Source of the DNA: Mytilus californianus
Lineage: Eukaryota
DNA: 64,000 bases
NCBI RefSeq assembly: GCF_021869535.1
Contig: NW_026262593.1
Coordinates: 14,446,001-14,510,000, forward strand
Direction of reading: 5' to 3'
The notes beneath the pieces were generated by a model. It had not been told where the DNA came from. It did no database searches and saw only the letters and a program-made list of their open reading frames with translations. The translations under genes and the position numbers were made by a program. This document shows positions 38,611 through 48,618 of the stretch, in pieces; within the stretch, counting starts at the first letter, position 1, and the number at the start of each line of letters is the position of its first letter.

Positions 38611-38820
38611 TTATTTTCCAAATACTTCTTTCATTGGTGTTGTTAAGTTGTAAAATATTTCCACTAATAGAGATGCCTTGGCGTTGTTGGTCATAGCTGC
38701 ATGAACCTTTATGTTGTTATGGTCACGATGCATCCAGTGACCACCATTCGATACCTCTTGAGATTGGTTTTTGTACAGATACTTATGCAACATTGATGAT
38801 GCAACCTGATTCTCTTCAAT
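38611..38820 (-). CDS. Actinoporin-like gene exon 5 (IEENQVASSMLHKYLYK...LLVEIFYNLTTPMKEVFGK*)
   Basis: attattAG acceptor, phase 0, 70 codons to TAA; extends track ORF 38611..38793. Confidence 0.9.
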   Translation of the reverse strand: MEENQVASSMLHKYLYKNQSQEVSNGGHWMHRDHNNIKVHAAMTNNAKASLLVEIFYNLTTPMKEVFGK

Positions 38821-41800
38821 CTAATAATATGTAAATATGTATCAAAATATTTAAACCATTGTCGTGACGTCAGCCTATTCATTTACCGTGGATTCTTTTT
38901 CTAGAATCAACGCTTCTTAAATCTGTCGCTGAATTAGAATATAGCAAAGTACTCTCGACCAATGAAATTGTAGGATTGGATGCCTCTTAATTGTGAAGAA
39001 TGAATGTAAATCATGTTCTTAGTAAGGGATTATCCTATTATTTGGGTCTATTTACAGTTCAAAACAAACAGTTTCTATAAATGAGTTACAACTGCCCCGA
39101 AGCACATTTATCAGATTGAAAGGATTTATCACAGAGTGATTGAAACTGACTAACAGTTGAATTGTGAAACACACAAAAATCTCAAAATAAGTTGAAGTTT
39201 ACTGGTGCAGTAAAATTGGTACCGTGAATGTTATTATGAAAATATTAATAACTTCAAATTACTATAAAATTAAACAATACCAAAGCAAATGCAAAAAAAA
39301 AAAAGGAAAAAAATCTTTCAGATAAAAAATAACCTAAATCTTTAGCTTTCCAAAACTTTGATTACTTGATCAGCGGTTGTGGAGAATAGTTATTTCCAAT
39401 ACATGTATTCGATAAAAAAAAAACAGGAATTTAGTTTAGTAAATTTAAAAACTATTAAGTGCATTATTTTTGAACATTTCCCTGACATAATGCAACAGTA
39501 TTTGATGTAAAAAGCCGGACCAAATTATTGGCTGTGAAATAAAATTTAGTTGTAACTCAAATGTATAAATTGATTTAAACTGTAAATAAAAAAAGGATAA
39601 TTCCTCACTAAGATATTACATGATTTACATTCATACTTACAATCAGGAAGCATACAATTCCTACCTTTTCTTTCTACTGTTGTGTCACCTAATATCTATA
39701 ACGCATTTTTTAAAAAAAATATTTCCCAAATGATAAGAAAGTCCTCACATCACTAAAACTAATCCATAAATGACATGCCGAAAAGGGAAGTCATGCATCA
39801 ATTATAAACAGTGCACTGACAATGAAACTAATTGATAGATCATTTGAGCCTTGAGCACTTCACAATATTCTAAGTTTGTAAGAGAATGATAATCCCTTAC
39901 TTCATGATAAGTACTCGCTAACGCTCGTACTTATTCATGAAGAAAGGGATTATCATTCTCTTACATATACATGGATTCACCAAATTATATTCAATTGTTT
40001 CCTTTGTGTGCCTAATTTCATTAAGTTTGAATTGGCTAATTTACTGATTTCTGTTCACTAATGGAATTAATTTAAAAACTTACCTTCAATTTTTGTAATT
40101 TTTATATGCCTTAACTGGGAATCGAACCCGTCCTTGAAATTTGTTATGTGTGACTCACATCAACATATCGACGAAACCTCTCGGCTACTAATGGGTTACA
40201 ATTTAAATGTCTATTTTATATATATATATATGAACATATAATAAACATCGGTGCAACGGACACACAGGGCTTGTACCTTTATATATACATAATAGGCAAT
40301 CGTATAATATAAGTTCGTAGCCGCGAGGTTAGCATGGTTCAAAACAATGAGTTAAAGAGTCAATTTAAAGTTAGGAACTTGTCGGTTTAGGTTCGAATTC
40401 TCTTTGTTGTCCCTATTCTGTAGTTTTTCTGTTGTTTTTTTTTTATTTTGTATGTAATTGTGGATATTTTTGTAATAATAGCGAGTTTTACCGTTTATTG
40501 TTGTCTATTTCACATATTTGAAACGAAAATGATTACATTCAATTTGTCCATTTTTGTTTTATAAATATAGATAGATTTCATCTGTTTTACTACATAATTT
40601 TACAAATGTTTATTCGCAAATTGCTATGCTAGTAAATCGTGGTATGTCTAGAATTAGGCTTCTTGCTAGAAATTTCGGTAACATACTTATTATATATACT
40701 TTATATATGCTCTTTGGTCAGGTTGTTGTCTCTTTGATACATTCCCATATCCATTCTCAATTTTATTAGTTAATGCATCGTTGAACATGATAATATGGTT
40801 ATTTAAACTCACTTACAATACCTTCTAATTAAGAAAATGCTTTAATTTTGAAAAGACATTAACACAATAGTTTATAAGTTATAGATACAATGGATAAGCA
40901 TTGATTCATGAAAAACAAACCATTCGCCCTGCGGGCTCATGGTTTCTTTTTCAAGAATCAACGCTTATTCATTGTATCTATATTACTGAATCCTTGCAAA
41001 TTAAAGAAAAACCGCAAAAACGCAAAAACAAAACAGTATTCCCTATGTGATTAATGTTTAATCTGTTATTAGCATTTATTGTTGACATATAAACATGTAT
41101 TTAACATTGAATTGTCATACGCATAATTTGCCTAAGAGTCGTATTTGTTGTTCGATAATGATCACATTTAGGGTATTTCGCATGTGTTGCCAAGTCTTTG
41201 GTTTTCTTTGTTGTGTTTTGTATACTGTTGTTTGTCTTTTGATCGTTATTTGTTTTTTGCTATGGCATTGTCGTTTATACTTCACTGTTATTATTTCAAG
41301 TGCCGTAAATTTGCGGTAAGGTAATTTTTTATTGATTTCATCGTATTGTAAACGCAACAGAGAAAAGGGCAACTTTGATTGGAAGCTCATTTTTACTTCG
41401 AACCAATACTTTTGTAACATTGGTACTAAAGGCACTAAAATAAGATCAGTTCGTTCTTAGTTTTTATCATTTAAAGCACTTGCTGATCATCTTAGCTGTC
41501 GACGTTCGTCCGCAATATAACAATATGTACAAATATTTTTGATATTTTAAATTACCTTTACGTTAAACCTATTAGAGTATATACCATATACCATAGGAAC
41601 TGACCACATGACCTCTATTTGTGTTTCTGTGCCGTCAACAGTGTACGTCAGAGTTCCAGCTGTTCCGTATGTAGCATCTGTTAAAAGATATAAACGATTT
41701 ATATTAACAGAATAAAAAAAAATCCTTACCAATGTAAGTCTTTAACTGGTGTTGACAGCTTCTATAACAGGCATCGTGCTAAATAAAAAAATAGAGATAC

Positions 41801-47800: not shown

Positions 47801-48618
47801 AGGATACTGATGTTGAAGAACTGTAATTTAAACAGAAAGTTTGTTCGAAACGATTAAACTCCGGACGTTGGGACTCTGAGCGGGTCAAGTAAGAAGTATA
47901 AAAAATTATAATTTATCGTCACAAAGTTAAGGTTTCAATATTCAAATATAACAATGGTTCATGTTTCTCCAGTGAACAAAAACCTGTAAATATAGCTGAA
48001 ACAAACAGTCGGCGAAGTTGTATATTATATTGGTAAGTCGTGAAAGAATTATTCAATTATGTAATTGAGAAAACTTTGCTATAAAAACTCACCAAAGATA
48101 CAAGTCTGTAATAATTAGCGTTTTATAAAATTTTGAAAATGTGAGTTTCTGAATTCCATATGTTATATACATGTATATGTATTGTATGGTCGTATGTGTT
48201 TTGTAGTTAAGTCGTGAGAGTTGTGTCCCTTTGTATGATGATGATGCATATTTGATGTGATGTTATCGGTCTCTTTGAAATAAACGTGCTATGGAAATAG
48301 ATGTTTTTGTTGCTCTTAAGCAAATATAACTTTAGTGGCATGGGGAGGCAAGTATATGTCCCCCAATGTACGTAATACATAATTATTGTAAAGATTATAT
48401 GAATTATATCATATAATGATATTGAAATGTTACATTATATAATGAAAAAAATAATTCTTTTTAAAACTTTTATTTACTTAATATATCTTACTTAACAAAG
48501 CAATAAGTTGCGCAATCACCTATGCCCTCCAATGTTTCACTGTTATAGTTATACACAAAAATTCATATACTTACACCAAGGTTAATAACACAACTGAATC
48601 AGATGCTTTCAACAACAT
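38611..48618 (-). CDS. Actinoporin-like pore-forming protein (mytiporin/coluporin-type), prepro form; 5 coding exons, 756 nt, 251 aa (predicted mature 184 aa)
   Basis: Join complement 48618-48575, 44784-44627, 42985-42764, 41677-41556, 38820-38611; GT-AG introns with phases 2,1,1,0 consistent. The mature part aligns by eye to actinoporins: VSRVCAIGLSN, WYLESG..LP.EI.P, GTAGTLTY, VMWSVP..Y..YSNRFNV, LHKYLY, GHW...IKVHAAMTN..KASLLVEI. Confidence 0.9.
39877..39965. repeat. Long inverted repeat: about 38-bp stem, loop TCGCTAACGCTC
   Basis: TGTAAGAGAATGATAATCCCTT..CTTCATGATAAGTAC pairs with GTACTTATTCATGAAG..AAGGGATTATCATTCTCTTACA. Confidence 0.9.
40117..40400. other. Divergent pair of tRNA-like Pol III A/B-box modules
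   Basis: Minus: GTAGCCGAGAGGTTT (40188-40174) ... GGGTTCGATTCCC (40129-40117). Plus: GTAGCCGCGAGGTT (40317-40330) ... GGTTCGAATTC (40390-40400). Confidence 0.55.
40881..40981. repeat. Long inverted repeat: about 43-bp stem with 4 mismatches, loop TCGCCCTGCGGGCTC
   Basis: ATAGATACAATGGATAAGCATTGATTCATGAAAAACAAACCAT pairs with ATGGTTTCTTTTTCAAGAATCAACGCTTATTCATTGTATCTAT. Confidence 0.9.
41556..41677 (-). CDS. Actinoporin-like gene exon 4: lipid-binding loop region
   Basis: cttttaacAG acceptor, GTAATT donor; ATYGTAGTLTYTVDGTETQIEVMWSVPMVYGIYSNRFNVK. Confidence 0.92.
41915..42070 (-). mobile_element. Family C repeat copy in actinoporin intron 3
   Basis: Reverse complement of 1880-2045. Confidence 0.8.
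42764..42985 (-). CDS. Actinoporin-like gene exon 3: N-terminal amphipathic helix and first beta strands
   Basis: ttttcttcttAG acceptor, GTGAGT donor; VGIISAVTAGFSILKAVASQIDVSRVCAIGLSNHG...FTFEKTN. Confidence 0.92.
43095..43331. mobile_element. Small MITE-like element with degenerate G-run/C-run terminal inverted repeats
   Basis: Left TTAACTTCAAGGGGGGG versus right CCCCCTCCCTTTGACGTAAAATGGTCGTTCCCTAA; a similar right end at about 58005-58035. Confidence 0.4.
43375..43705 (-). mobile_element. SINE-like element with a Meta-domain-like core (GACGTTAAA.CCGATGCCTCGTGT...AGAACCC) and a (CAAT)-like tail
   Basis: Diverged second copy at about 52305-52595(-); core fragment at about 37340-37405(+). 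Family assignment is from recall of mollusc SINEs. Confidence 0.5.
44627..44784 (-). CDS. Actinoporin-like gene exon 2: acidic propeptide ending PKKR
   Basis: ttttatattttAG acceptor; IHLQLATPKNLDKYNLEDAARKAEVEEVDLDNLIETNEGFHNLTNLGVPKKR; donor GTTTGT, phase 1. Confidence 0.82.
44865..45350 (+). mobile_element. Interspersed repeat family D copy carrying a nested family B fragment (about 44975-45085)
   Basis: GGTATCACCAG.CCAGTAGT..GTGTTGA is shared with 53585-53810; reverse-strand pieces at about 17225-17315, 34130-34330 and 12770-12920. Confidence 0.72.
45103..45252. repeat. 50-bp tandem triplication inside a family-D repeat
   Basis: GATACACTAAGATTTCTCTTCCCCAGGCATACATT.. at 45103, 45153 and 45203. 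Confidence 0.92.
45850..46740 (+). pseudogene. Decayed PIF/Harbinger-superfamily (DDE_Tnp_4/ISL2EU-like) transposase, antisense inside actinoporin intron 1
   Basis: Frameshifted and stop-containing pieces in the expected order: SGETP; IYRSLIEPRELYFSGYPHFHC; QIVIDNS; HQNDAQQF; LLADKIYPIRYPLMTPYT (46438 on); EHSIGELK..GSLWRHPRRKL. These recall the GxxxD, GDxxY..L.TP and VExxFGxLK motifs of this family. Confidence 0.7.
48575..48618 (-). CDS. Actinoporin-like gene coding exon 1: signal peptide start MLLKASDSVVLLTL(V)
   Basis: Acceptor tatttttAG at 48633-48634, ATG at 48618, donor GTAAGT; phase 2 joins exon 2 to give VVLLTLVIHLQLA. Confidence 0.72.

What the first reader, a model, noticed from the sequence alone, without database searches (positions are those of the whole stretch)
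38611..48618. Complete prepro actinoporin-like pore-forming toxin gene with anemone-style precursor logic
Seen: signal peptide (about 21 aa), acidic propeptide, PKKR|VVGII processing site and a 184-aa mature chain. The pro/mature boundary coincides with an intron. Known: sea-anemone actinoporins are made as signal-acidic pro-KR-mature precursors, and actinoporin-like genes (mytiporins) are an expanded family in Mytilus. Whether this copy is described cannot be told from sequence alone.
Basis: partly seen in the sequence, partly recalled or inferred. Interest (0 to 1): 0.7.

Follow-up and report, generated by a model that had tools for sequence, protein, structure and literature searches.

The report
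Mussel mytiporin-25: ancient prepro pore-former
This is an intact, spliced copy of an already named mussel gene (mytiporin-25) for a likely secreted protein with a predicted sea-anemone-toxin fold, which is likely cut from a pro-piece to perforate ingested microbes in the gut; oysters, scallops and a brachiopod share its predicted cut site, so it is likely an old inherited gene and not one borrowed from anemones.

Summary
The gene is real and intact: five coding exons, 251 codons, GT-AG introns. All four junctions stand in contigs of two runs, likely from a sister species. It is the ortholog of the published mytiporin-25 (212/234 residues); exons 2-5 match a RefSeq protein 234/234. Pfam and the predicted fold are actinoporin. 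So the gene is already known. Not found in the papers searched: (1) the 46-residue pro-region is conserved in oysters and scallop (19-22/46) and predicted helical, though only mildly acidic; (2) the basic site recurs in Lingula, but is K-T-R in the edulis group; (3) these proteins form their own clade with Lingula (99/96) and share no domain intron with the expanded mytiporins, which argues against the paper's 'mussels only' and 'transfer' options; (4) the RefSeq model takes its first exon from an intronic repeat and misses the signal peptide. The aromatic lipid patch is eroded (2 of 6 kept), so an anemone-like sphingomyelin toxin is unlikely. Cleavage and pore formation are untested. No earlier scan note covers it.

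The parts
49217..49249 (-). 5' non-coding exon (3' end at 49217 before GTAAGT; 5' end not known)
   Evidence: Joint 48632/49219 with two other letters between, 31 letters on the short side, run X9; same joint implied in X1 (table 5c); donor seen
48575..48632 (-). Coding exon 1: 14 nt of UTR, ATG at 48618, codons 1-14 of the predicted signal peptide; phase-2 donor
   Evidence: joint 44784/48575 in X1, X5, X9
48596..48601 (-). 6 extra bases (two residues) in the signal exon against the contigs of organism A
   Evidence: left out in X1, X5, X9; not left out in run X19 of organism B
45098..45253 (.). 50-bp tandem repeat (3.1 copies) in intron 1; source of the first 15 residues of RefSeq model XP_052083510.1
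44627..44784 (-). Coding exon 2: end of predicted signal peptide (to about 44766) and 46-residue pro-region (44765-44628)
   Evidence: no Pfam family
44628..44639 (-). PKKR, predicted processing site; intron 2 starts one base later
   Evidence: conservation
42764..42985 (-). Coding exon 3: N-terminal helix region and first strands of the actinoporin domain
41556..41677 (-). Coding exon 4: strands and loop that form the lipid-binding site in actinoporins
   Evidence: PF06369 E 4e-4 on the exon alone
38611..38820 (-). Coding exon 5: second helix, last strands, short tail, TAA
38600..38605 (-). ATTAAA 6 nt after the stop, possible poly(A) signal (not tested)

Best explanation
This is the intact, single-copy ortholog of mussel mytiporin-25, whose product has a predicted actinoporin fold, is likely secreted in the digestive gland as a precursor, is likely cut after the basic site, and would then perforate membranes of ingested microbes or microalgae without the sphingomyelin specificity of anemone toxins. 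Shown: gene structure, splicing (in a likely sister species), family, orthology, conservation of pro-region and site. From the paper: signal peptide, core gene and digestive-gland expression of mytiporin-25 in M. galloprovincialis. Inferred: (1) the signal peptide routes it to secretion; (2) the 46-residue helical pro-region holds the pore-forming N-terminus out of action or sorts the precursor; (3) a convertase or gut protease cuts after the last basic residue; (4) the 184-residue beta-sandwich docks on a membrane through a changed lipid patch, the N-terminal helix inserts and oligomers form a pore. The lineage is likely old and vertically inherited, apart from the expanded mytiporins.
For: Intact frame and junctions. 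Best named hit mytiporin 25; 212/234 over exons 2-5. PF06369 54.9 bits against a cut-off of 25. Model pLDDT 87.2, pTM 0.81; Foldseek ranks 1-3 bryoporin, Fav and equinatoxin II, E 1e-18 to 5e-17, TM of target 0.85-0.90, rmsd 1.4-1.9. Paper: core gene, signal peptide, strongly expressed in digestive gland. Pro-region 19-22/46 identical to oyster and scallop, against 98-104 of about 184 in the mature part; predicted helices 24-41, 46-52, 54-60 in P0016 numbering. A basic residue ends the pro-region in 15 of 16 relatives and a dibasic pair in 9 of 16, Lingula included; the domain alignment to anemone toxins begins four residues after it. Paper: N-terminal extensions inhibit EqtII pores, which gives the pro-region a plausible job. 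Clade of 7 bivalve-type rows 100/98, with Lingula 99/96. Exon 2 and exon 5 each match one place in the genome.
Against: No experiment on mytiporin-25 was found; cleavage, lysis and target are inferred. The N-terminal 28 residues are not more amphipathic than their shuffles (fraction of shuffles as high 0.285; anemone control 0.006), and the stretch before the first core strand is 26 residues against 31. K-T-R in 6 of 16 and K-T-L in 1 of 16 relatives. In Hydra HALT-4 the pro-form was as lytic as two cut forms (abstract), so a pro-region need not inhibit. A zebrafish relative with this fold forms no pores (passages). Monophyly with the other molluscan porins was not rejected (p-AU 0.057). The junction evidence is from contigs that differ from the window by 12 of 554 bases in exons 3-5, not from the window's own species label.
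Confidence: 0.55

Rival explanations
1. A secreted, non-lytic lipid- or glycan-binding protein of the gut lining that keeps the fold but forms no pore.
For: No significant amphipathicity in the N-terminal 28 residues of this protein or of six relatives (fractions 0.15-0.37); eroded aromatic patch; a non-lytic fish relative exists; single copy and conserved, unlike diversifying effectors.
Against: Conserved basic site directly before a hydrophobic N-terminus (mean hydrophobicity 0.41, control 0.42); closest solved folds are bryoporin and cnidarian actinoporins; the three molluscan porins with pore data form pores.
Confidence: 0.22
2. The N-terminal region is kept, or serves only sorting or folding; activity does not depend on a cut at PKKR.
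For: HALT-4 precedent (abstract); site is K-T-R in the edulis group; pro-region conserved and predicted helical like a small domain; the site lacks the P4 arginine of the furin consensus (consensus recalled).
Against: The terminal basic residue is kept in 15 of 16 relatives, from mussels to Lingula; anemone precursors are cut after Lys-Arg at the matching place.
Confidence: 0.15
3. An anemone-type, sphingomyelin-specific haemolysin, possibly acquired from a cnidarian.
For: Prepro layout; 3 of the 5 features that mark molluscan porins are absent; 29% identity over 168 residues to an Actinia toxin; a clade of this group + Lingula + the cnidarian-holding clade is not rejected (p-AU 0.11).
Against: Only 2 of the control's 6 aromatic lipid-site residues are kept, and oyster and scallop orthologs replace one of those two; computed pI 7.2 against 9.1-9.7 reported for Heteractis toxins; a clade with cnidarian-type rows but without Lingula is rejected (p-AU 0.022); orthologs in four bivalve genera outside Mytilus, and introns 2 and 3 at the same places in oyster-like records.
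Confidence: 0.08

Closest known systems
Mytiporin-25 of Mytilus galloprovincialis (UYP38787.1; Koritnik et al. 2022, PMC9645577)
   Same: 212/234 residues over exons 2-5; same layout; best named hit.
   Different: 249 against 251 residues; K-T-R against K-K-R at the predicted site. The paper's main text does not use propeptide, pro-region, dibasic, cleavage or intron.
RefSeq XP_052083510.1 / LOC127720798, labelled Mytilus californianus, uncharacterized
   Same: 234/234 over exons 2-5.
   Different: Its first 15 residues come from a 50-bp tandem repeat in intron 1 and are not hydrophobic; contigs of three runs join exon 2 to 48575 instead.
Sea-anemone actinoporins (equinatoxin II, FraC, sticholysins; Pfam PF06369)
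   Same: Predicted fold, prepro layout with a basic site, same lengths of the core segments (26 and 28 residues against 27 and 28).
   Different: Pro-region 46 against 15-16 residues; 6 of 14 lipid-site columns identical to the Actinia control; near-neutral pI; one cysteine; 14-residue tail against 3.
Mytiporin-1 and the expanded mytiporin / coluporin clade
   Same: Same Pfam family; mytiporin-1 is also a digestive-gland protein with a signal peptide.
   Different: Separate clade (100/100); mytiporin-1 has no pro-region; one phase-0 domain intron 19 nt away from this gene's phase-1 intron 3 and none at its intron 4; an 8-residue insertion after helix 2 that this protein lacks.
Lingula anatina XP_013381572.2 and oyster, scallop and pearl-oyster uncharacterized proteins
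   Same: Sister or members of the same clade; P-x-K-basic before a valine start.
   Different: Lingula has a shorter pro-region (about 28 residues) and a cysteine-rich 64-residue tail.

Membership tests
Actinoporin-like proteins (PF06369) | Pfam Anemone_cytotox above the curated cut-off | tested here: met
   54.9 bits, cut-off 25, profile 6-174 of 176, on the record identical over exons 2-5
Actinoporin-like proteins (PF06369) | Beta-sandwich flanked by two helices | tested here: met
   AlphaFold model and Foldseek; predicted, not solved
Mytiporin-25 ortholog group | Closest relative and one clade with mytiporin-25; single locus | tested here: met
   (100/99)
Expanded (monophyletic) mytiporin clade | Falls inside the clade of mytiporin-1 and relatives | tested here: not met
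   Outside the 100/100 clade; the paper also excludes -25 and -26. A sister relation to that clade is not rejected, p-AU 0.057
Expanded (monophyletic) mytiporin clade | Shared phase-0 intron in the domain (seen here, not from print) | tested here: not met
   Donor seen in 11 of 12 and acceptor in 10 of 12 other loci; absent here
Anemone actinoporins (strict sense) | Signal peptide + propeptide ending in Lys-Arg | tested here: met
   Layout in sequence; cleavage itself not tested; signal judged by hydropathy and by the paper
Anemone actinoporins (strict sense) | Aromatic sphingomyelin/phosphocholine site conserved | tested here: not met
   6 of 14 columns identical, 2 of 6 aromatic residues kept; nine positions, five (53, 56, 87, 108, 116) recalled
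Anemone actinoporins (strict sense) | Amphipathic N-terminal helix | tested here: inconclusive
   Helix predicted; moment 0.50, reached by 28.5% of shuffles; control 0.59 and 0.6%
Anemone actinoporins (strict sense) | Basic and cysteine-free mature chain | tested here: not met
   Computed pI 7.17, net charge 0, one cysteine; the Actinia control itself computes to only 7.91
Anemone actinoporins (strict sense) | Sphingomyelin-dependent lysis, octameric pore | not testable with these tools
   needs bench assay
Typical molluscan actinoporin-like proteins (five features in PMC12197748) | N-terminal extension, extra strand, longer loop before helix 2 | tested here: not met
   26 residues before the first core strand if cut as predicted; segment lengths equal the anemone control
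Typical molluscan actinoporin-like proteins (five features in PMC12197748) | C-terminal extension and cysteine | tested here: met
   14-residue tail against 3; one cysteine

The most novel reading that the evidence does not exclude
Mytiporin-25 is the survivor of a second, ancient lophotrochozoan actinoporin lineage, kept in mussels, oysters, scallops and a brachiopod. It is gated by a conserved helical pro-domain and released by a cut as a compact, anemone-shaped gut porin with its own lipid target. Prepro processing of actinoporins would then predate the cnidarian-bilaterian split or have arisen twice, and would not be a venom-specific invention.
Probability: 0.35. Interest if true: 0.5.

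Novelty: already known. Interest (0 to 1): 0.3.

Why it matters
The gene is named and deposited, so the find itself is ordinary. The added value is narrower. It bears on a question that the mytiporin paper left open (ancient duplication kept only in mussels, or transfer from an unknown donor): orthologs in oysters, scallop and pearl oyster, shared introns and a Lingula sister favour old vertical inheritance. It points to a processing site not mentioned in the papers searched, which gives a direct proteomic test, and to a candidate conserved gut porin in farmed bivalves. It also flags a RefSeq model that likely misses the signal peptide.

Tried and rejected
First exon coordinates were mis-set and corrected. 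The run search listed no holder on record as RNA. Runs of organism B (X21, about 6 in 100 read; X22; X23) and X16 showed no junction and little or no exon depth; tissues are unknown, so this says nothing on expression. Joint tables were cut (180 and 38 rows not shown), so a rare joint from the intronic repeat to exon 2 is not excluded. The Pfam profile found only 2 places in the genome because exons score low; a protein query found 58 matches. Pfam and the Atlas gave nothing for the pro-region, which shows neither novelty nor absence. The quick 104-row tree was replaced by a careful 42-row tree that leaves out the other rows, long branches among them; the AU groups were named after the first tree was seen, and only 2 of the 9 rows of the 'cnidarian' clade carry cnidarian names. 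Literature searches for the gene structure of anemone actinoporins listed no paper on it by title or abstract start, so no intron comparison with cnidarians is made. No complex was predicted, so oligomer size and docking of the pro-region are open. Earlier scan notes: none by sequence, none holding the words actinoporin or mytiporin. Rejected: pseudogene (frame intact, spliced form exists); recent tandem-expansion copy (single locus); mussel-only gene.
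Full report
Observation. The minus strand holds five coding exons: 48618-48575, 44784-44627, 42985-42764, 41677-41556 and 38820-38611. They total 756 nt, or 251 codons plus TAA. All four introns are GT-AG with matching phases (2, 1, 1, 0) and no exon has an internal stop. PKKR ends at 44628 and intron 2 begins one base later, so the pro/mature boundary and the intron do coincide; residues 68-251 make 184. Eight runs were laid in two calls. Contigs of X1 and X5 carry all four joints at exactly these bases with CT..AC ends. X9, laid on 44400-49700 only, carries joint 1 and a joint to an upstream non-coding exon ending at 49217. 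These three runs are from three studies of 'organism A', and their RNA status is the tool's guess. The X1 and X5 contigs differ from the window at 12 of 554 bases in exons 3-5, and all three lack 6 bases of the signal exon, as does the M. coruscus protein; a sister species is inferred. Run X19 of organism B covers the introns, keeps the 6 bases and shows no such joint. The other four runs gave no junction.

Identity. Exon 3 finds 'mytiporin 25 [Mytilus galloprovincialis]' at 95%. Over exons 2-5 the window matches it 212/234, the M. coruscus record 229/234 and RefSeq XP_052083510.1 (labelled M. californianus) 234/234. That RefSeq model starts with 15 residues read from a 50-bp tandem repeat in intron 1 and has no hydrophobic leader; the contigs support the signal exon instead. 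The RefSeq protein scores 54.9 bits on PF06369, cut-off 25. Its AlphaFold model (95-row alignment, pLDDT 87.2, pTM 0.81; it includes the doubtful first 15 residues) is a beta-sandwich with two flanking helices. Its top Foldseek matches are bryoporin, Fav and equinatoxin II (rmsd 1.4-1.9).

What is in print. Koritnik et al. 2022 (PMC9645577; abstract, sections 5, 6, 7, 12 and 16, term searches and the supplementary PDF text read; figures not visible) list mytiporin-25 as a core gene with a signal peptide, strongly expressed in digestive gland. They place -25 and -26 between cnidarian and molluscan porins and offer two origins: an ancient duplication retained only in mussels, or an independent acquisition, possibly horizontal. 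Only mytiporin-1 of this family was assayed: weak, not sphingomyelin-specific, hexameric. The main text has no occurrence of propeptide, pro-region, intron, dibasic, cleavage or Lingula. 'Mytiporin' occurs in 2 papers of the library; the second, PMC12197748 (passages and section 5), does not name mytiporin-25 in the passages shown. Further searches (listings) gave no paper on this lineage. Subscription journals are not searched and supplementary figures could not be seen.

The pro-region. It is 46 residues if the signal ends at 21, against 15-16 in Heteractis and Actinia precursors (PMC6025637, passages). It has 10 acidic and 7 basic residues; oyster orthologs are neutral to basic. It is 19-22/46 identical to oyster and scallop, only a little below the mature part (98-104 of about 184), and is modelled as three helices. 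Among 16 relatives that include this region, 9 end in a dibasic pair (M. coruscus, the RefSeq record, scallop, two oysters, two unnamed records and Lingula with K-R; pearl oyster with K-K), 6 edulis-group records end in K-T-R and mytiporin-26 in K-T-L. A cut after the last basic residue is likely but not shown. The HALT-4 abstract (PMC10305222) warns that a pro-region need not silence the protein.

The mature chain. Of 14 columns that line the lipid site of anemone toxins (nine positions, five recalled), 6 are identical to an Actinia control and 2 of its 6 aromatic residues are kept; oyster and scallop replace one of those two. Computed pI is 7.2 and net charge 0. The N-terminal 28 residues are as hydrophobic as the control's, but their helical moment is reached by 28.5% of shuffles (control 0.6%). 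Of five features said to mark molluscan porins, three are absent (N-terminal extension after the predicted cut, extra strand, longer loop) and two present (short tail, one cysteine). It is anemone-shaped but likely not anemone-specific.

Origin. Orthologs at 50-56% occur in Argopecten, Ostrea, Saccostrea and Pinctada, and the best named non-bivalve hit among 1.84 billion representatives is from Lingula (20 of the 150 listed hits were looked up for names). In a 42-row tree of the domain, the group is a clade (100/98) with Lingula as sister (99/96), apart from the mytiporin-1/coluporin clade (100/100) and from the clade holding the two named cnidarians (100/99). AU tests: with cnidarian-type rows but without Lingula, rejected (p 0.022); with Lingula included, not rejected (0.11); with the other molluscan porins, not rejected (0.057). 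The groups were named after a first tree, so these are soft. Unspliced read-through records 85-95% identical to the Ostrea protein leave the alignment at the same places and in the same phase as introns 2 and 3 (P0008, P0027, P0187). Twelve other mytiporin-type loci of this genome, picked from 58 matches, were read exon by exon: 11 show a phase-0 donor and 10 the acceptor at one site 19 nt upstream of this gene's phase-1 intron 3, and their 3' exon runs through the site of its intron 4. Exons 2 and 5 each hit one locus, and exon 3 also hits one orphan 110-bp piece. 'Mussels only' is contradicted; a transfer into bivalves from cnidarians is unlikely; deeper placement is unresolved.

Mechanism. 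Most likely (0.55): secreted precursor, cut after the basic site, membrane docking through a changed lipid patch, helix insertion and an oligomeric pore in ingested microbes or algae. Gene structure, family and conservation are shown; expression is from the paper in another species; cleavage, pore and target are inferred. Rivals: non-lytic binder (0.22), cut not needed (0.15), anemone-type haemolysin or transfer (0.08).

Verdict. An already known gene, correctly read by the first stage. The conserved pro-region, the wider lineage and the annotation fix are modest additions. Interest 0.3.

Noticed in passing
P0017 (mytiporin 26, UYP38788.1) against P0013 and P0002: Mytiporin-26 is 246/249 identical to the M. 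edulis record but 229/249 to mytiporin-25. It may be an edulis-type allele of the same locus and not a separate dispensable gene (inference; the paper's Fig. 1A was not visible).
   Followed up: partly
G000:C99, about 60451591-60451700 (L002 92-201): Orphan 110-bp piece of exon 3, 93.6% identical, with no other exon found in the 20 kb fetched.
   Followed up: partly
window 45098-45253: Intronic 50-bp tandem repeat supplies the likely wrong first exon of RefSeq XP_052083510.1.
   Followed up: yes
G000:C2, C121, C132, C143, C165, C24 (L003-L015): Clusters of other mytiporin-type genes (58 exon matches). L005 and L006 begin like published mytiporin-1; L014 and the L003/L004 locus carry stops.
   Followed up: partly
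P0021, P0024, P0025, P0028: Unnamed 350-370-residue metagenome proteins with two matching stretches each score above most animal relatives against mytiporin-25 (E 2e-31 to 4e-21); origin unknown; left out of the trees.
   Followed up: no
window 19234-19539 (+): 102-codon stop-free frame with above-background GC that looks exon-like; no Pfam match.
   Followed up: no
window 27514-27876 and 34767-35705: Tandem arrays (24-bp x 15; 61-bp arrays); the first explains the long low-complexity frames there.
   Followed up: no
mature chain, exon 5: Two N-glycosylation sequons; by eye the second is kept in the oyster and scallop rows.
   Followed up: no
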